Shown here one piece after another: positions 2,880 through 53,763 of a stretch of DNA of 64,000 nt (the stretch's first letter is position 1; every line of letters begins with the position of its first letter). A program made the position numbers and the translations under genes. Under the pieces are notes generated by a model. The model searched no databases. It was not told the origin of the DNA and was given only the letters and a program-made list of their open reading frames with translations. Location of the stretch: NCBI GenBank assembly GCA_043807255.1, contig JAZDGD010000009.1:29476-93475 (forward strand). The letters run 5' to 3'. Origin of the DNA: Patescibacteria group bacterium. GTDB lineage: Bacteria; Patescibacteriota; Minisyncoccia; RBG-13-40-8-A.

Positions 2880-2911
2880 ACCATATGCTCGTCAAGTTTT
2901 TTTTAAAAATG

Positions 2912-2937
2912 TCAGAGGTCATACCTCTGACATTTGT
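2912..2937. repeat. GC-rich palindrome tgtcagaggtcatacctctgaca; second copy at 63948-63975
   Basis: Perfect 10-bp stem read directly from the sequence. A near-identical copy sits at the other end of the window. Confidence 0.6.
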
Positions 2938-3000
2938 TATTTCGCGACATCGGATATTTCCTATATTACGACATCGCAAGTCGTAATATAGCCAACAAAC

Positions 3001-3570
3001 TTAAATTCTAAAAATATCATTTATTGTTTTTGGCGTAAGTTTAAATTTTTCTTTTCGAAAAGATTTTTTTGTTACCTCGTCAATGTCTTGTGTTGAAAAA
3101 GTGTCAGCACCAATCAACTCATAATGATCGTCCACTTTACCTATTCTGCCAAAAAACACATAACCCTTCTCGGTATCAAAAGTAGCCCTATATTCATTCA
3201 TCAACCATTTTTTGTTAGTTTGTAAATCCTTAATTGTAAGACTTTTGCTTCGTTCCATGTCTAACACTTCAAACATTCCGTATTCGCTATCAAGCAAATC
3301 TTTATAGAGTTTCATTTCTAATTCATTAAGATTAAAAGGATTAGTAATAATAAAATTTTTAATTGGCGTATAGCCATTATTTAATACAAAATCGTATAGG
3401 AACCATTCGTTAAAAAAGATTTCGCCTTGTTTGGTGGTTCCAAGAGAACCGCCTCTCTCTAAATCTGGACGATTATAAAATTCACGCAAAGCGCACATTA
3501 CTTCTTCGCTAAACTCGGGCGCAGTAAAATAATATTTATATACTTTTGCTATTGATCCTTTTGGTAGCAT
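3001..3570 (-). CDS. Hypothetical protein
   Basis: 189-aa ORF with typical AT-rich codon usage. No motif recognised. Confidence 0.4.
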   Translation of the reverse strand: MLPKGSIAKVYKYYFTAPEFSEEVMCALREFYNRPDLERGGSLGTTKQGEIFFNEWFLYDFVLNNGYTPIKNFIITNPFNLNELEMKLYKDLLDSEYGMFEVLDMERSKSLTIKDLQTNKKWLMNEYRATFDTEKGYVFFGRIGKVDDHYELIGADTFSTQDIDEVTKKSFRKEKFKLTPKTINDIFRI

Positions 3571-3573
3571 AAT

Positions 3574-3888
3574 TTATAAATTTTCAACGGCTTTTTTGCG
3601 ATATAACAAAATCAATCTTTCAGAATCATATTCTTTAATTTTATCTTGTGCCATAATTATTAATCCCTCCCATGCCAAAATATTAGCTTTTATTTGAGAA
3701 ATCGCTTCGTTCTTTAACTCGTGATTTTGGATTTCTGAATCATTTTCAGCAATTTTCAAAGTCGCTTTTTCTATTTCTATGTCTTCTTCCAATCTAACTA
3801 TATCGTCTTTCTCTTCCATTTTTATTTTCTCAAGTCCCTCTAATTCTTGATTTATTCTTTCCAGTTTTTTATTTTTAACTATTTCCAT
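3574..3888 (-). CDS. Hypothetical coiled-coil protein
   Basis: 104-aa Glu/Lys-rich ORF, tightly packed (3-nt gap) with the upstream ORF. Confidence 0.35.
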   Translation of the reverse strand: MEIVKNKKLERINQELEGLEKIKMEEKDDIVRLEEDIEIEKATLKIAENDSEIQNHELKNEAISQIKANILAWEGLIIMAQDKIKEYDSERLILLYRKKAVENL

Positions 3889-4112
3889 AAATTTATTTTA
3901 ATTAATTCGTTATCTTATCTTAAATCACCCTTAATTGCCTTAGATCTTTGAAGTTATGTTTTTCAACCAAAGTATCTCTATGCCAAACTTTTAAAAGTTT
4001 GGCATCCCATTCTAAATAATCGAAGGGTTCGCAAGTAGTCTTAAAATAAGAATAAATTTTATTATATTGAGATTGGAAAATTTTATATTTCATTTTTTAT
4101 ATTTTTTTAACT

Positions 4113-4880
4113 TCATAATAATTCGTATTTGCCCGAACCAATAAATCTTAAATAATTTTTATTTCTTAAAAATTGTAATTGTTGTCGGATTTTATCCTTA
4201 ATGTGTTTATTTTCCGGATGAATAATTTTTAGGTCAGTTTCGAAATTATAAATATCTTGTAAATAAAATTCTTTTTTATCTATAAAATCAATACAATTCA
4301 TAATATCTAAAATCCAGCCCCTTGCGTCTGCTTTTTTAATTTTTTTAAGAAAAACCGTTTTTTGCCATTTATCTAAAACTTGTTTTTTAGAAATTTCTTT
4401 TCCGTTTTCTACGTAAAATACTTGCCCCGCTTTGGGAATTTTTGAAAATAAAATATTTGAACCGATCCAGCCAGCTCTTCTGGCTGTCTCTTTTAGGGGT
4501 TTTCTTTTCTCAACAATTTCAGAAACAAAAAAATGTTTTGGCACAACTAAAAAATCATTTACATACAGCGACTCTAAATATCCCATAAAAAAGAAATTTG
4601 GTTTAACTTGAGAATTTATTCTTTCTATCATTTTCGAATATGCTCCAGCGGGTATAATTTTATTAATCTTTCCTTTTTTTGATTTTAATTCAAAATCTTC
4701 ATTACATTTTTCACAATAAAAATCTGCTACTGGCTTATTGTTCTCATAATTAGTAATCTTTATATTCCCACAATTAGGACAAAAAATTTCATTGTTGACC
4801 CAGTTCTCCGTTAAAACTCTCGTTTTTTGAGATAAACTTTTGTATTTATCGGCAATTTTTGTATCGAAAGATAAATTCAT
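4113..4880 (-). CDS. DpnI-like methylation-dependent (GmATC-type) restriction endonuclease
   Basis: 255 aa. N-terminus has SQKTRVLTENWV...FCPNCGN...NNKPVADFYCEKCNEDFELKSKKG (zinc ribbon plus PD-(D/E)xK region). C-terminus has IKDKIRQQLQFLRNKNYLRFIGSGKYELL (winged helix). The layout and many residues match my recollection of S. pneumoniae DpnI (254 aa). Confidence 0.55.
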   Translation of the reverse strand: MNLSFDTKIADKYKSLSQKTRVLTENWVNNEIFCPNCGNIKITNYENNKPVADFYCEKCNEDFELKSKKGKINKIIPAGAYSKMIERINSQVKPNFFFMGYLESLYVNDFLVVPKHFFVSEIVEKRKPLKETARRAGWIGSNILFSKIPKAGQVFYVENGKEISKKQVLDKWQKTVFLKKIKKADARGWILDIMNCIDFIDKKEFYLQDIYNFETDLKIIHPENKHIKDKIRQQLQFLRNKNYLRFIGSGKYELL

Positions 4881-4939
4881 ATATTTTTATCATACCTCTT
4901 TTAATAAATTTTTACCAGCATTATAGATATTTTAACAGA

Positions 4940-5137
4940 AATACCCGAGGTCTGACCTCGGGTATTTCTGTATCTTATGAGGCTAAGCCTCGTAAGATAT
5001 AATCCTGATATCGGGAGGTTCGACCTCTAACGCCCCCCCGCATCAACACTTAATATTGGGAGGTCGAACCTCTTATTATGTGGGACGTGCGACGTCCCAC
5101 ATAAATACGAAACATACGGAGAACTGTTCTCCGTATC
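4940..5137. repeat. Array of six different GC-rich hairpins in tandem
   Basis: Hairpins: cccgaggtctgacctcggg (4945), cttatgaggctaagcctcgtaag (4975), gggaggttcgacctc (5013), gggaggtcgaacctc (5058), gtgggacgtgcgacgtcccac (5080), atacggagaactgttctccgtat (5115). Confidence 0.6.
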
Positions 5138-5173
5138 TTCTATCTGTCCACTATTAATGAGAATTTGTTTGTC

Positions 5174-5291
5174 ACTGAGACAATTTCGCAGGCAAAATGC
5201 ATGGTTTCGTCCCAACAAACATGTCGTGGACGAAATTTTGCCGAGAATTAGCACGGCCACTCGCTGGAGTGGCCGATGCGTGTCGACATGA
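5174..5291 (-). ncRNA. Conserved structured element, copy A, in the 3' region of rpsI (candidate ncRNA or cis-RNA element)
   Basis: About 75% identical to 52317-52422. Compensatory changes preserve three stems. The element ends 18 nt from the rpsI stop codon. Confidence 0.4.
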
Positions 5292-5309
5292 CAAATAAAT
5301 TCGAGTGCT

Positions 5310-5843
5310 CTATCTCTTGCTCCACTGTGGCGCCTTACGGGCTTTCTTGAGGCCGAATTTTCGACGCTCTTTCTCTCTTGGGTCTCTTTTTAAAAATCCT
5401 GCCTTCTTTAGTTTCTTTCTAAAATTAATATCAAAAATAATCAATGCTCTAGAAATACCATGTCTGATTGCTTCCGCTTGTCCAGAAATTCCACCGCCAT
5501 TAACTTTCACTGTTCCTGAAAATCGGTTTGCTGATTTTAGCTTTGCAAACGGAGATTCGATTGTTTGTTGTAAAATTTGGGTTGGAAAATATTGCTTATA
5601 ATTTTTTCCATTAACTATAAGATTCCCTGCTTCCATTGATTCTGATGGATTGACAGTAAAAAGCCGAACACGAGCAACTGCTCTTTTTCTTCTGCCAACG
5701 GCCTCAATATATTCTGACTTTTTGAGCTTCCTCTCTCCAACAACGTCTTCAGAAATAGGCAGGACAACCTGAATATCCTCTGTACTTTCAGCGGGTTTTT
5801 TGGCCACTTTAACAGATTTAATTTTACTTGATTTCTCCGGCAT
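5310..5843 (-). CDS. rpsI: 30S ribosomal protein S9 (with N-terminal extension)
   Basis: C-terminus GRRKRAVARVRLF...RKFGLKKARKAPQWSKR is typical of S9. Confidence 0.85.
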   Translation of the reverse strand: MPEKSSKIKSVKVAKKPAESTEDIQVVLPISEDVVGERKLKKSEYIEAVGRRKRAVARVRLFTVNPSESMEAGNLIVNGKNYKQYFPTQILQQTIESPFAKLKSANRFSGTVKVNGGGISGQAEAIRHGISRALIIFDINFRKKLKKAGFLKRDPREKERRKFGLKKARKAPQWSKR

Positions 5844-31862: not shown

Positions 31863-33152
31863 TTATTTTTTAAGCCAAGTTTTGTCTTGACGGACTAAAA
31901 GCTGTTTTATTTTTTCTGGCTCTGCCATAATTTCCTCTATTATCTTTTCTAGTCTTATTGATTGAGATCCTTTTACAAAAACAATATCTTCTTCTTTTAT
32001 TTCTTTTTGCACAATTAATTTTGCTTCTTCGGATGTTGAAAATTTAAAAATCTTACTTTCATCAAAACCAACGCTCTTTGCTCCTTGTGCAATAAATTCT
32101 GTACTACTTCCAATTGCAAAAATTAGATTTACTGTTTCGCCCGCCTTTTTGCCAAGCTTGATATGTGCTTGTTCTGAATATTTCCCAATCTCCAACATAT
32201 CTCCCAAAATTGCGATTTTTCGTTTATCTGTAAAAACTTTTAAGGCATTAAGTCCTGCCTCCATTGATAGTGGTGCTGCGTTGTAGGAATCATCAATAAT
32301 AACACTATTTTTTATCCCTTTTAATAAATGCATTCTTCCTGGCAAAGGAACAATTTCTTTGATTGCCTGAGAAATCTCTACTAAGTTCATATTAAAAATA
32401 ATTCCTACCGCAGCTCCGGCCAAGGCCGAATATAAATGTTGTGTGCCCAAAACATTAATTAATTTTGCTGGCACACTGCTCCCCTTAAAATCTAATTTAA
32501 AATTAAGCTCACTAACGTTTTCTTTTTCAAACAACAATTTTAATTCATAATTTGTTGCCTTAATATCCGCTTTTTCATTCAATCCAAAGGTCATAACTTT
32601 AGCGTCGATATCATTTTCCATTTTTCTTACTCTTTCGTCGTCGTAATTTAAAATCGCAATTCCATCCTTGTCCAATGTTTTGACTATGGTCTTTTTTTCT
32701 TCAGCAACTTTTTCTGGGCTTTCGAAAAATTCAACATGAACTGGAATATCACCAACCGTAGTGACTACGCCAATTTTATGTTTTACAAAACCAAGCAAGT
32801 ACTTTATGTCTCCCGGTTTATCAGCCCCCATTTCTAAAATTAGGAAATCGGGATAATCAACTTTAACCAAAATCATATACAACATTTTAATAAATTTTGG
32901 AATCCATCTTAAAATTGAATTTCCTCCAGTTTTTAAATTAAAAATCGTTAACGGGACACCAATTTCATTATTATAATTTTTTTCATTCCTTCTGATTCGT
33001 TTTTCGCCAAAATGACTTTTTAAAACAGCATAAATTGCCTCCTTGGTAGAGGTTTTACCTACGCTACCAGTAATCGCAATAACAATTGGCTTATATTTTT
33101 TTAAAGCAATGATTGCTAATCTTTTTAATATTTTTTGTAAAATTTTTATCAT
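31863..33152 (-). CDS. murF: UDP-N-acetylmuramoyl-tripeptide--D-alanyl-D-alanine ligase MurF
   Basis: ITGSVGKTSTKE P-loop and Mur ligase domains. Confidence 0.8.
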   Translation of the reverse strand: MIKILQKILKRLAIIALKKYKPIVIAITGSVGKTSTKEAIYAVLKSHFGEKRIRRNEKNYNNEIGVPLTIFNLKTGGNSILRWIPKFIKMLYMILVKVDYPDFLILEMGADKPGDIKYLLGFVKHKIGVVTTVGDIPVHVEFFESPEKVAEEKKTIVKTLDKDGIAILNYDDERVRKMENDIDAKVMTFGLNEKADIKATNYELKLLFEKENVSELNFKLDFKGSSVPAKLINVLGTQHLYSALAGAAVGIIFNMNLVEISQAIKEIVPLPGRMHLLKGIKNSVIIDDSYNAAPLSMEAGLNALKVFTDKRKIAILGDMLEIGKYSEQAHIKLGKKAGETVNLIFAIGSSTEFIAQGAKSVGFDESKIFKFSTSEEAKLIVQKEIKEEDIVFVKGSQSIRLEKIIEEIMAEPEKIKQLLVRQDKTWLKK

Positions 33153-51551: not shown

Positions 51552-52286
51552 ATGAGCGCTAATCCCAACAGTATAATTATAGAAATTAGAGCTGGTGCTG
51601 GTGGCGACGAAGCTGCCATTTTTGCTGCTGATTTGTATCGAATGTATTCTCGTTTTGCCGAAAAACAGGGATGGAAATTAAGAGTTTTAGATTCTAGTGA
51701 ATCTGGATCGAAAGGGATCAAAGAAATTAGTTTTCAAATTTCCGGAGCTGATGTTTATAATCTATTGAAACAAGAAGGTGGGGTTCATCGCGTACAAAGA
51801 ATCCCTGAAACAGAAAAAAACGGTAGAATTCATACTTCAACCGCATCAGTGGCAGTACTTCCCTACGTTGAACCAAAAGAATTTGAAATTAAAGCAAGTG
51901 ATTTAAAAATTGACACTTTTAAGTCGTCTGGTCCAGGCGGGCAATACGTGAATAAAACCGAATCCGCAATTAGAATCACGCATATGCCATCTGGGTTTGT
52001 TGTTGCCTCTCAGCGCGAACGAAGCCAGGCGGCGAACAAAGAAACGGCCATGAACTTATTACGTTCACGGCTTTTCGCATTTTTAGAAAACAAAGAAATA
52101 CAAAAATTGGGACAAGAAAGAAATGCACAAATTGGCACCGCTGATAGGTCGGAAAAAATCCGCACCTACAACTTTCCCCAAGATCGCATCACCGACCATC
52201 GCATCAAAAAAGAATGGCACAATATTGAAGACATCATTAATGGCAACTTCTACCCGATTATCAAAAAATTCCAAAGACCCGAATAA
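51552..52286 (+). CDS. prfA: Peptide chain release factor 1, domains 2-4 only (domain 1 absent; PET in place of PAT)
   Basis: GGQ motif [44 protein letters not shown] aligns to the RF1 PAT region. 244 aa against about 360 aa typical. Confidence 0.75.
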
Positions 52287-52287
52287 A

Positions 52288-52315
52288 CCCTCACCCAAAG
52301 TGAGGATTTATTTTA
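52288..52315. terminator. Bidirectional terminator (ccctcacccaaagtgaggg with flanking T/A tracts)
   Basis: Hairpin followed by TTTATTTT. Confidence 0.65.
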
Positions 52316-52316
52316 T

Positions 52317-52422
52317 ACTGAGACAACTTCGGAAGCCAAAAGCACGGTTTTTTCTGAAAGAAAAATTTTGGCTGAGAATTAATGCAGCCACCCGCTGGGG
52401 TGGCTGACATGTGTCGACATAT
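52317..52422 (-). ncRNA. Conserved structured element, copy B (3' region of the SLT-domain gene)
   Basis: Aligns with 5174-5291. Ends 18 nt after the stop codon of 52441..53763. Confidence 0.4.
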
Positions 52423-52440
52423 AAAATGAATCTGAGCGTC

Positions 52441-53763
52441 CTACCCTTTTTCCATAATATCAATTTGTTCTTGAAAATTTTCTGCTCTTTCCATCACTTG
52501 ATCACCATAAAAACGCAAAGACGATTTTTGCCAATTTGCACCGGCCAAATACATCATTGTTGCTTTCCATTCTGCTTTTTCTGTTTTTTGATCAGCCCCC
52601 TTATTCACCAAATATAGTGCCGAAGCAATAAATGCATCTTTAACATTCCACGGTGATGGCGGATTATTTCCTGTTATTTCTGCAATTTTTGCCTTATACC
52701 CCAACCAAGTGGCTGGCATCATTTGCGCTGGGCCCATTGCCCCACCCCAACCATACCAAACCTTTTTTGATACTGGATATTTATCTGGGTCAATTCCCAA
52801 TTCTTCACAAATCTGTAAATAATAAGTTCTTTGGCTTAGTTTCATATCAACTCGCCACGTTCCTTTGCCAATATTTTTTCCCAATTCTGATTCTCTGCTT
52901 AAAATTGCCAAAAGAAACGCTGGCCTTATTCCAGTATGAATTCCTGCAAATTTTGCATATTTATATGCATCTTCAAACCTTAACGAACCATCAGTTGATA
53001 TGTCTTGCAAAAAATAAAGTTTGTTTTTTATCGTTTCTATGTCGGCCTGAGTTTTTTTCATTAACTGATTAAACAGATTTTCTTGGCCATTGGTTTGGGC
53101 CAATAAATTATTCCTTTGTTTTTTCTTTAGTTCCAACCCAGCCCTCTGTTCGGCTTGTATATATTTTAATGATGCCTGTTCTTCTTTCTCGTTCACTAAA
53201 TCTGTTTTTTCTTTTTCTAAGGTTGATTTTGCATTAGAAATTTTCTTAAGCTGTTCTTGAACCTGTTGATGAAAATTTTCTAAAGATCTTATTTCCGAAA
53301 GAAAATCCGATAAACTCCCTTCAGTCAAAACCACTTCTACAAGCGAAGTGTCGTCATATTTTCTCACTTCTCTCAATAATTCGGCAATAGTTGTTTTTTC
53401 TAAATCAACTTCGCGCTCTATTTCGCGAATTGATTTTTCTTTTTGATTTATTTGCTTGTCGAGTTTCTTAATCAACAAATCAGTTCTTTGAATTTCTAAT
53501 TCTGCAGAATTAATTTGTGCATCTAAAATCACGATTTCTGTTTTTAATGATTTTGCCTGTTGTTGATTTTCGGTTATTGCTTGCTGATACTGGCCAATTT
53601 TTGATTCCAATTCTTTTAGTCGTGCCTCTGCTTCTTGCTCTTGGACATCAATATCGAGAGATGTCTCGGCAAAAACAAAACCCGCTCTAAGCGGAAAAAC
53701 GCAAAAAATGGCAATAATTGCCATTAAAATAAAACTTTTATTAAGTTTAACAAACTTAATCAT
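52441..53763 (-). CDS. Secreted coiled-coil protein with a C-terminal lytic transglycosylase (SLT) domain
   Basis: Signal peptide, long coiled coil, and GGAMGPAQMMPATW with SLT-domain-like context. Confidence 0.6.
   Translation of the reverse strand: MIKFVKLNKSFILMAIIAIFCVFPLRAGFVFAETSLDIDVQEQEAEARLKELESKIGQYQQAITENQQQAKSLKTEIVILDAQINSAELEIQRTDLLIKKLDKQINQKEKSIREIEREVDLEKTTIAELLREVRKYDDTSLVEVVLTEGSLSDFLSEIRSLENFHQQVQEQLKKISNAKSTLEKEKTDLVNEKEEQASLKYIQAEQRAGLELKKKQRNNLLAQTNGQENLFNQLMKKTQADIETIKNKLYFLQDISTDGSLRFEDAYKYAKFAGIHTGIRPAFLLAILSRESELGKNIGKGTWRVDMKLSQRTYYLQICEELGIDPDKYPVSKKVWYGWGGAMGPAQMMPATWLGYKAKIAEITGNNPPSPWNVKDAFIASALYLVNKGADQKTEKAEWKATMMYLAGANWQKSSLRFYGDQVMERAENFQEQIDIMEKG

What the first reader, a model, noticed from the sequence alone, without database searches (positions are those of the whole stretch)
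52317..52422. Copy B of the covarying structured element (downstream of the SLT-domain gene, abutting the prfA terminator)
Same element as 5174-5291, recorded separately because its context differs. It sits between the convergent prfA (plus strand) and the SLT-domain gene (minus strand), with no room for a plus-strand promoter after the prfA terminator. This favours minus-strand, 3'-UTR-embedded expression.
Basis: seen in the sequence. Interest (0 to 1): 0.55.

Follow-up and report, generated by a model that had tools for sequence, protein, structure and literature searches.

The report
Structured repeat lodged after stop codons
This is one copy of a previously undescribed ~140-base repeat in ultra-small (CPR/Patescibacteria) bacteria that folds into a three-armed hairpin and always sits, in one orientation, right after a gene's stop codon; it comes and goes between related genomes, so it behaves as a small mobile or recombining element, not a conventional RNA gene.

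Summary
Copy B spans about 52300-52437, wider than reported, and copy A about 5157-5306. Both belong to a family with more than 110 copies in CPR genomes and metagenomes. The fold is a long A/U-rich closing stem, an internal loop and a three-way junction. It is strongly supported: 45 of 50 pairs co-vary and 96.9% of cells are paired. Rfam, phages, plasmids and viral contigs gave no match.

In about 95% of roughly 90 loci, a gene on the opposite strand ends 0-10 nt from the outer stem. The element has no promoter of its own. In at least 11 loci it fills an intercistronic gap.

Orthologous sites after the SLT gene, rpsI and murF are filled in some genomes and empty in others. Filled sites carry different internal modules.

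These signatures are a G·U excess, tandem G·A motifs, purine-rich loops, GNA triloops and about 5.6 kcal/mol extra stability.

Best reading: a new, orientation-specific interspersed palindromic element, passively co-transcribed. The molecule on which selection acts is unresolved.

The parts
52300..52437 (+). Copy B, whole element (strand given is the better-folding strand; it is transcribed from the minus strand with the SLT gene)
   Evidence: CM R1 162 bits; full-length fold with z -7.1; boundaries from family conservation
52304..52317 (+). P1 outer stem, 5' arm (GGATTTATTTTATA); also the T-tract of the prfA terminator
   Evidence: Pairs with 52420-52433, including two G·U pairs. The equivalent columns co-vary across the family: 17 of 20 pairs in helix 1 show double changes.
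52318..52325 (+). CUGA half of the internal loop, then GACA (P1 inner stem, 5' strand)
   Evidence: Invariant in the main class. A variant class has AAAAGACA/UGUCUUU, a fully paired helix, which confirms the register.
52328..52378 (+). P2 arm: UUC/GAA, GGA/GA loop, 8-bp P2b, 5' bulge GCACGGT (52342-52348), and P2c hairpin with a GAA triloop (52356-52358)
   Evidence: All 15 pairs of helices 3 and 4 show double changes; loop census. Some copies have a short, bulgeless P2 or insertions here.
52379..52411 (+). J2/3 UUA; P3 hairpin (ATG.CAGCCACC C-GCTG-G GGTGGCTG A CAT); J3/1 G
   Evidence: All 12 P3 pairs show double changes. The basal triplet reads AUG/CAU here, GCA/UGC in copy A and GUG/CAC in the consensus.
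52412..52437 (+). TGTC (P1 inner stem, 3' strand), GACA loop half, P1 outer 3' arm (52420-52433), terminal GAGC
52441..53763 (-). SLT_2-domain lytic transglycosylase gene; its stop codon (TAG, 52441-52443) lies 3 nt from the element
51552..52286 (+). prfA-like release factor gene (244 aa), convergent with the SLT gene
   Evidence: PCRF and RF-1 domains; same synteny in relatives
52289..52305 (+). prfA terminator hairpin CCTCAC-CCAAA-GTGAGG; its 3' arm and T-tract belong to the element
   Evidence: the same composite arrangement occurs in 7 other loci
5157..5306 (+). Copy A, directly after the rpsI stop codon (rpsI 5310-5843, minus strand)
   Evidence: CM 158 bits
31795..31862 (.). Empty site in this same genome: the murF 3' end (murF 31863-33152, minus strand) has no element, whereas the orthologous site is filled in L005, L008, L023/L030, L051, L054 and L098

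Best explanation
Copy B belongs to a new family of roughly 140-bp interspersed palindromic elements found in a clade of Patescibacteria (CPR). The MAGs carrying it are labelled Portnoybacteria, 'Saccharibacteria' or unclassified. The element folds into a long A/U-rich stem closing a three-way junction. It occupies, in one orientation only, the few nucleotides between a gene's stop codon and whatever follows: a terminator, the next promoter or the next cistron. It has no promoter and is transcribed passively with the upstream gene (shown by context). Here that means the minus strand, in the SLT gene's 3' UTR. It is gained, lost and remodelled between related genomes (shown). Copies exchange P2 and P3 modules (inferred to be gene conversion between copies). 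The strand whose fold is preserved is the one antisense to the genes (shown statistically). I therefore infer that selection acts mainly on a single-stranded DNA form of the plus strand. That form would be the substrate of a strand-specific transposition or recombination enzyme not yet identified, as with REP/REPIN-RAYT, IS200/IS605 ends or integron attC bottom strands. On this reading the gene-sense RNA hairpin (about -55 kcal/mol) is a by-product. It can still matter locally, for example as a barrier to 3' exonucleases, an RNase III substrate, a substitute for a lost terminator, or a donor of half a terminator to a convergent gene, as for prfA here.
For: Family and structure: 17 strict copies in 6 GTDB species genomes and 105 metagenome stretches. 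The model R1 finds 114 + 25 hits in loci fetched. Of 50 pairs, 45 show compensatory changes; 96.9% of cells are paired, against 32-53% when the 3' partner is slid by 1-3 columns and 79% in shuffles. Placement and orientation; every copy on any one contig has the same orientation. No own promoter, and intercistronic cases. Gain and loss: the SLT site is filled in the window, L126/L038 and L124 with three different module sets, and empty in L122, L123, L125, L127 and L128. The rpsI site is filled in the window, L113 and L116, decayed in L129, and empty in L130-L132. The murF site is filled in six contexts and empty in the window and L048. Chimeric copies exist: L116 combines a B-type P2 with an A-type P3. 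Other small repeats are inserted inside some copies, and one copy has lost P2, showing that individual copies are dispensable. Fold strand: G·U versus A·C is 119:48, and 85:45 after clustering at 90% identity. Rare variants are symmetric, but only G·U variants reach high frequency. CGAG/CGAG tandem G·A motifs occur at 3-4 places, and junction and loop bases are purine-rich, on the plus strand only. The P2 tip carries C-GAA-G, T-GAA-A or C-GCA-G triloops in 51 of 105 copies, and I saw no GNRA or UNCG loop among the listed loops. The plus strand is more stable in 98 of 101 copies, by a mean of 5.6 kcal/mol. From my own knowledge, d(C-GNA-G) triloops and Y-GA-R tandem mismatches are classic stable ssDNA motifs.
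Against: No partner enzyme, target motif or target-site duplication was found. Within one genome, copies are old and diverse: the median pairwise identity is 73% across the whole set of 106 distinct copies. This is not a recent burst. The locus-specific outer stem shows compensatory change between orthologous murF copies (GATAAAAA/TTTTTATC versus GATGAAAA/TTTTCACC). That looks like selection on pairing in place, and so hints at a host-level role. Only 22 of 95 loci keep a canonical terminator after the element, and in L129 the element sits where relatives have the terminator. The gene-sense RNA may therefore be functional. In known ssDNA transposons (IS200/IS605, my own knowledge) the active strand lies on the lagging-strand template. 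Here the plus strand is the leading-strand template for most genes. The search patterns demanded intact motifs, so decayed copies are under-sampled.
Confidence: 0.5

Rival explanations
1. Host cis-acting RNA element in the gene-sense transcript. On this reading the hairpin directly after the stop codon defines or protects the mRNA 3' end, uncouples cistrons, or is unwound by the terminating ribosome as a translation-linked switch. This would resemble E. coli REP/BIME or Yersinia ERIC elements.
For: The element is always co-transcribed with the upstream gene. About 75% of loci have no other terminator. In L129 the element replaces the terminator found in relatives. The outer stem shows compensatory change in place between orthologues. 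The stop codon lies within ribosome reach of the stem. TAG stop codons are enriched, 41 of 90 against 98 of 504 in the background, which hints at a link with translation termination.
Against: On this strand the conserved internal loops become C·U/U·C mismatches and the junctions become pyrimidine-rich. A·C mismatches replace the frequent G·U pairs. This strand is less stable in 98 of 101 copies. No U-tract follows the structure, because the 3' arm is A-rich. Orthologous genes do well without the element. Some copies are broken by insertions.
Confidence: 0.27
2. Folded-DNA recombination site of an integron-like or Xer-like system. On this reading the plus (bottom) strand hairpin downstream of each ORF is the recombination substrate, and extra genes are captured next to it.
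For: The element sits directly after ORFs, and the folded strand is antisense to the ORF. Same-orientation arrays exist, for example four copies in 5 kb in L096. Length and imperfect dyad symmetry resemble attC sites such as the Vibrio cholerae repeats (VCR; my own knowledge). Filled sites often carry extra DNA on the far side: the DpnI island next to copy A, an extra ORF in L124, and an IS in L126.
Against: The flanking genes are syntenic housekeeping genes (rpsI, murF, mnmA, the SLT gene). They stay in place whether or not the element is present. No RYYYAAC/GTTRRRY boxes are present (sequence). No integrase was seen in the loci inspected.
Confidence: 0.1
3. Independently expressed plus-strand small RNA, or a catalytic RNA (for example a new self-cleaving ribozyme) made from a few master copies. 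Most copies would then be inactive insertions in the harmless antisense orientation.
For: The plus strand looks like a functional RNA. About 40 unpaired or junction bases are invariant, loops are purine-rich, tandem G·A motifs are conserved, and the three-way junction is about the size of small ribozymes.
Against: There is no plus-strand promoter in 88 of 92 loci and none inside the element. Terminators stop plus-direction transcription at the element's 5' end in 8 loci. No Rfam ribozyme or other family matches even at E up to 10. No tertiary covariation was detected. No GNRA or UNCG loops were seen.
Confidence: 0.08

Closest known systems
REP / REPIN elements mobilised by RAYT (HUH Y1) transposases
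   Same: Both are multi-copy extragenic palindromes, mostly at gene 3' ends and co-transcribed. Recognition is strand-specific on a folded single strand. REPINs are long hairpins of about 100 nt. Both evolve by compensatory change. (My own knowledge; abstract of PMC3733652 seen.)
   Different: There is no GTAG or CGTC head. The structure is not a doublet of two short REPs but an asymmetric three-way junction with about 40 invariant bases. Orientation relative to the gene, and distance to the stop codon, are essentially fixed. No RAYT has been identified.
ERIC, Correia, BOX, RUP and SPRITE small interspersed repeats (MITE-like)
   Same: All are 100-200 bp, with terminal inverted repeats that form a long stem in the transcript. 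They are restricted to a clade, enriched downstream of genes, and thought to affect co-transcribed genes (PMC3049150, read; PMC2229807 abstract).
   Different: The pneumococcal repeats show only about 60% strand bias and variable distance to genes (PMC3049150). Here the bias is about 100% and the stop codon is 0-10 nt away. No target-site duplication is seen. Internal helices co-vary extensively. The better-folding strand is antisense to the transcript.
Integron attC sites (for example Vibrio cholerae repeats)
   Same: Both are imperfect palindromes of roughly 60-140 bp directly after ORFs. The functional fold is on the strand antisense to the ORF. Structure is conserved through compensatory change. 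Species-specific homogeneous families and same-orientation arrays occur. (My own knowledge.)
   Different: There are no R'/R'' boxes. The neighbouring genes are fixed housekeeping genes, not cassettes. The element is gained and lost without its gene. No integrase or attI is known.
Intrinsic (Rho-independent) terminators
   Same: Both sit at gene 3' ends. The element sometimes stands where relatives have a terminator, and its 5' end can supply the 3' stem arm and T-tract of a terminator for a convergent gene, as for prfA here.
   Different: The U-rich arm precedes the structure and the A-rich arm follows it, on both strands. That is the reverse of a terminator. The element is also far larger, with a conserved junction.

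Membership tests
Any Rfam 15 RNA family (including hammerhead, twister, hatchet, pistol, hairpin, HEARO) | Score at or above the family's gathering threshold | tested here: not met
   Only six tRNAs pass threshold in the window. Searches of both copies at E up to 10 give only sub-threshold noise; the best is CRISPR-DR53 at 19.6 bits against a threshold of 45.
REP/REPIN (RAYT-associated) | Conserved GTAG or CGTC tetranucleotide head next to a short (20-40 nt) hairpin; inverted doublets | tested here: not met
   The consensus and alignments contain no GTAG/CTAC or CGTC head. The architecture is a single asymmetric three-way junction.
REP/REPIN (RAYT-associated) | Cognate RAYT (Y1 HUH transposase) gene in the same genomes | not tested
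   Only up to about 14 kb around each copy was available.
MITE (non-autonomous DDE transposon) | Terminal inverted repeats | tested here: met
   The P1 arms GGATTTATTTTACA / TGTAAAATAAATCC are conserved.
MITE (non-autonomous DDE transposon) | Target-site duplication flanking the inverted repeats | tested here: not met
   No consistent direct repeat appears outside the stem in 88 copies. TA flanks both sides in only a few copies (L012, L096).
MITE (non-autonomous DDE transposon) | Insertion in either orientation; parent IS with matching inverted repeats | tested here: not met
   Orientation relative to the adjacent gene is uniform. No split copy flanking an ORF was found in 700 kb of loci.
Integron attC | R'' RYYYAAC and R' GTTRRRY boxes at the ends | tested here: not met
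   The ends read ATTTTAC...GTAAAAT or ATTTTCA...TGAAAAT, and they vary between copies.
Integron attC | The site moves together with its upstream ORF as a cassette; intI and attI nearby | tested here: not met
   Gene order L25-SLT-prfA-L31 and rplM-rpsI-CAP is the same with or without the element.
Intrinsic terminator | GC-rich hairpin immediately followed by a U-tract on the transcribed strand | tested here: not met
   The 3' arm is A-rich on both strands. Only the P3 hairpin plus CAUUAAUUCU gives a weak consensus match on the minus strand.
TnpB/IscB guide-RNA (omega RNA) scaffold | Adjacent to or overlapping a tnpB or iscB gene at a transposon end | tested here: not met
   The neighbours are rpsI, SLT, prfA, murF, mnmA, PAP2, PNP and similar genes.
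Stand-alone sRNA gene | Own promoter and terminator on the strand of the structure | tested here: not met
   4 of 92 loci have weak promoters pointing in, and none lies inside the element.

The most novel reading that the evidence does not exclude
The element may be the folded single-stranded DNA substrate of an unknown, strand-specific insertion or recombination machinery in CPR bacteria. That machinery would target the junction between a stop codon and the downstream signal. It would use a three-way-junction hairpin on the strand antisense to the gene, in effect a new class alongside attC, REPIN and IS200/IS605 ends. It might also nucleate capture of extra genes such as the DpnI island next to copy A. 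A related reading is that the plus strand encodes a new catalytic or protein-binding RNA made only from master copies.
Probability: 0.25. Interest if true: 0.85.

Novelty: new variant of a known kind. Interest (0 to 1): 0.6.

Why it matters
CPR/Patescibacteria genomes are tiny and tightly packed, and almost nothing is known about their repeats, mRNA 3' ends or mobile DNA. This family has three useful properties. (1) It is easily recognised, and gene callers mistake it for small ORFs: a 58-aa 'gene' was called on it in L126. (2) It shows an unusually strict rule, always antisense and within 0-10 nt of a stop codon, that no described bacterial repeat family shows. That rule points to a targeting or selection mechanism not yet described. 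(3) It offers a clean natural experiment of filled versus empty orthologous sites after rpsI, murF and the SLT gene, which can test how a strong 3' hairpin affects expression in organisms that cannot be cultured alone. If the antisense-strand fold reflects an ssDNA recombination substrate, it would add a new member to the small set of systems that read folded single-stranded DNA.

Tried and rejected
- **Rfam:** searches at gathering and permissive thresholds found nothing.
- **Known ribozymes:** I compared hammerhead and hairpin ribozyme cores by eye. The CUGAGA and GAGAAUUA blocks do not fit CUGANGA...GAAA...UH or loop A/B, so I rejected both.
- **Small ORFs:** a minus-strand AUG...UAA across P3 and a plus-strand SD-AUG...UAG across P2 are in frame in only some copies. 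The AUGs are not conserved, so these were rejected.
- **Palindromic protein site:** GACACGTGTC and GTCGAC looked like a possible dsDNA binding site. The P3 base co-varies with its 5' partner instead of keeping the palindrome, and a variant class lacks GTCGAC.
- **Insertion into pre-existing terminator hairpins:** this might have explained the locus-specific outer stems. Empty sites show no such hairpin halves.
- **TA target-site duplication (IS630-like):** seen in only a few copies.
- **Outward promoter inside the element:** no match of 10/12 or better.
- **Tertiary or pseudoknot covariation, including bulge to P3 loop:** only within-helix linkage was found.
- **Orphan half-elements flanking an ORF (an autonomous parent):** none.
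- **Phage, plasmid and viral collections:** no match.
- **Separating gene direction from replication direction with GC skew:** not possible, because skew follows the coding strand.
- **Literature:** searches for a described CPR repeat or RNA of this kind found nothing relevant.

Full report
**1. Observation.**

Copy B (reported as 52317-52422) and copy A (reported as 5174-5291) are real relatives. They share 82% mean column identity, and their differences fall on both sides of predicted helices. A three-block pattern taken from their shared motifs hits only these two places, against 0 expected in shuffles. Each copy folds into the same three-way architecture on either strand, well below shuffled controls. 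No Rfam family matches, either at gathering thresholds or at E up to 10.

**2. The element is one copy of a large family and is longer than reported.**

- The pattern found 17 copies in 16 stretches from six GTDB species genomes. All are Patescibacteria MAGs; Candidatus Portnoybacteria RBG_13_40_8 alone has six.
- A pattern restricted to the 3' half found 105 metagenome stretches. All but one also carry the unconstrained 5' half.
- Viral contigs, phages and plasmids gave nothing.
- The flanks are conserved too, and they pair: GCGArGAUUUAUUUUACA ... UGUAAAAUAAAUCyGAGC.
- Copy B therefore spans about 52300-52437 and copy A about 5157-5306.
- I built a covariance model from 19 copies with a hand-set structure. 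It finds only the two copies in the window and 114 + 25 copies in the fetched loci.

**3. Anatomy (window plus strand).**

- **P1 outer stem:** 14 bp or more. In the main class it is extended through a tandem G·A (CGAr/yGAG) by two or more further pairs.
- **Internal loop and inner stem:** a 4x4 loop CUGA/GACA, followed by the inner stem GACA/UGUC.
- **Three-way junction:** J1/2 is AAY, J2/3 is UUA within GAGAAUUAG, and J3/1 is G.
- **P2:** UUC/GAA; a GSA/GA loop; 8-bp P2b; a conserved 5' bulge GCAYGGU; and the P2c hairpin.
- **P3:** a basal triplet, 9 more pairs with a bulged A, and the loop C-GCUG-G.
- **Support:** on 106 distinct copies, 96.9% of cells pair. Of 50 pairs, 45 show double changes, and 886 cells show compensatory change. 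Shuffled controls give 79% pairing, and sliding the 3' partner by 1-3 columns gives 32-53%.
- **Variants:** a class whose internal loop is closed to Watson-Crick pairs (AAAAGACA/UGUCUUU); a short bulgeless P2; other P3 loops (CGCA, CACA); a P2b module in which GAAA/UUUC is swapped for the tandem-G·A module GAGC/GCGAG; and copies interrupted by other small repeats.
- No tertiary covariation was detected.

**4. Context rule.**

- In about 95% of roughly 90 loci with enough flank, an ORF on the opposite strand ends 12-32 nt after GTGTCGACA, with 17-23 nt the dominant range. That places the stop codon 0-10 nt from the outer stem, and sometimes inside it.
- The genes are ordinary: rpsI, murF, mnmA, dnaJ-like, PAP2, PNP, DJ-1 and an FAD oxidase. 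In the window they are rpsI and the SLT-domain gene.
- L096 carries four copies in 5 kb, each after a gene.
- On the other side, the next cistron's ATG is 3-20 nt from the stem in at least 11 loci.
- These organisms use textbook TTGACA-17-TATAAT promoters. Good promoters point away from the element in 20 of 92 loci. Weak ones point into it in 4 of 92. None lies inside it.
- A canonical terminator follows the element in gene orientation in only 22 of 95 loci.
- In 8 loci, including copy B, the element's 5' end (GyGAGG plus the T-rich arm) is the 3' half of a terminator for plus-direction transcription.
- The element is therefore transcribed with the upstream gene.

**5. Gain, loss and remodelling.**

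- **SLT site.** Synteny L25-SLT-prfA-L31-S2-Tsf is conserved.
  - The site is filled in the window.
  - It is filled in L126/L038 (SLT 92% identical), where the copy has a copy-A-like P2 and a different P3.
  - It is filled in L124 (73% identical) with a short-P2 type.
  - It is empty in L122 (90%), L127 (81%), L123 and L128 (76%) and L125 (62%).
  - In L122, L123 and L127 (read directly) the stop codon runs straight into a bidirectional terminator. L128 has a similar 28-nt gap, and in L125 the SLT and prfA genes overlap.
- **rpsI site.** It is filled in the window, L113 and L116. L129 has a decayed copy in which P2 is replaced by an unrelated palindrome. L130-L132 are empty.
- **murF site.** It is filled in L005, L008, L023/L030, L051, L054 and L098, with at least four module combinations. 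It is empty in this window and in L048.
- L116 is a chimera of a B-type P2 and an A-type P3.
- Between orthologous murF copies the locus-specific outer stem changes on both sides: GATAAAAA/TTTTTATC versus GATGAAAA/TTTTCACC.
- The family therefore turns over, shuffles modules and keeps its pairing.

**6. Which strand folds.**

- G·U pairs outnumber A·C 119:48, and 85:45 after clustering at 90% identity.
- Rare variants are symmetric (by my tally of the table, about 37 G·U against 35 A·C). Only G·U variants reach 5-15% frequency.
- The conserved non-canonical features are tandem G·A (CGAG/CGAG) and purine-rich loops on the plus strand. On the minus strand they become C·U mismatches and pyrimidine-rich loops.
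- The P2 tip is a GNA triloop closed by C-G or T-A in 51 of 105 copies, and I saw no GNRA or UNCG loops among the listed loops.
- With RNA parameters the plus strand is more stable in 98 of 101 copies, by a mean of 5.6 kcal/mol. With DNA parameters it is more stable by 2-4 kcal/mol.
- Mutation bias does not explain this. At four-fold degenerate sites of minus-strand genes the skews are near zero. The expected deamination bias would favour the opposite mismatch (inference).
- The plus strand is antisense to the genes, and it is the leading-strand template for the 62 of 68 window ORFs on the minus strand.

**7. Interpretation.**

Three things are shown: a new interspersed structured repeat, strict placement and orientation, passive gene-sense transcription, and turnover between genomes. 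The rest is inferred.

The preserved fold is on a strand that is not normally transcribed. I therefore think selection acts chiefly on a single-stranded DNA form used in propagation or recombination. Precedents are REP/REPIN-RAYT, IS200/IS605 ends and attC bottom strands. The GNA triloops and Y-GA-R tandem mismatches fit DNA. I hold the overall reading at 0.5.

The main rival (0.27) is a host cis-RNA role for the gene-sense hairpin. Three observations support it: other terminators are scarce, compensation occurs in place, and TAG stop codons are enriched (41 of 90 against 98 of 504).

An attC-like recombination site (0.1) fails on R boxes and on cassette behaviour. A plus-strand sRNA or ribozyme (0.08) fails on promoters and on Rfam.

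**8. Comparison and novelty.**

The closest kinds are REP/REPIN, ERIC, Correia, BOX and SPRITE repeats, and attC sites. None of them combines a conserved three-way junction, near-absolute orientation, 0-10 nt spacing to the stop codon, and a fold favoured on the antisense strand. Pneumococcal repeats, for comparison, show only about 60% strand bias (PMC3049150). Literature searches found no description of such an element in CPR bacteria. I rate it a new variant of a known kind, with interest 0.6.

Noticed in passing
window 2880-5156: Relatives have rpsI followed directly by the CAP-domain and sortase genes (L129-L132). The window instead carries a ~2.3-kb insert between copy A and the CAP gene. 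It holds a DpnI-like methyl-directed endonuclease (4113-4880, minus strand; Pfam DpnI 1.6e-74) and two ORFs with no Pfam hit (3001-3570 and 3574-3888). Other filled sites also carry extra DNA on the same side of the element: an extra 143-aa ORF in L124 and an rve-type IS in L126.
   Followed up: partly
window 4935-5136: Six near-perfect hairpins lie in a row between copy A and the DpnI gene, for example ACGGAGAAC.GTTCTCCGT, GTGGGACGTGCGACGTCCCAC, GAGGTTCGACCTC, GAGGTCGAACCTC and an 18-bp perfect palindrome at 4935-4971. Similar GGAGGTCGAACCTCC hairpins recur next to elements in L011, L035 and L116.
   Followed up: no
L033:39-217, L057:3009-3149, L020:2425-2728; upstream flanks of L017, L019, L020, L021, L048, L114, L115: A second small repeat, CCCGC-nnnn-GCGGGATAAACTCCGC, often lies just beyond the far end of the element. 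In three copies it is inserted inside P2.
   Followed up: no
L089:2795-2974 and L129:2023-2151: A third small palindrome, CCTGCCTGCCGGCAGGCAGG, is inserted into the element. In L089 it splits GAGAATTA. In L129 it replaces P2.
   Followed up: no
about 90 loci; window 52441-52443 and 5310-5312: Stop codons directly before the element are TAG in 41 of 90 cases, against 98 of 504 for long ORFs in the same loci. Both window copies follow TAG. Unexplained.
   Followed up: partly
L048:2790-2816; L008, L005, L023 and L051 just beyond the element: In the empty murF site of L048, the -35 box of the downstream tRNA promoter lies inside the last murF codons (TTGTTA), with TATAAA 17 nt on. In filled murF sites a TTGATT-17-TATGAT/TATTCT promoter starts immediately after the element.
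   Followed up: no
window 51552-52286: The release-factor gene is short (244 aa). Its PCRF match starts at profile position 99 of 194. Relatives are similar at 231-245 aa, so the N-terminal domain seems to be reduced in this clade.
   Followed up: no
L126:2070-2246: The public gene call lists a 58-aa ORF that is simply the element read on the opposite strand. This repeat will seed spurious small proteins in CPR annotations.
   Followed up: yes
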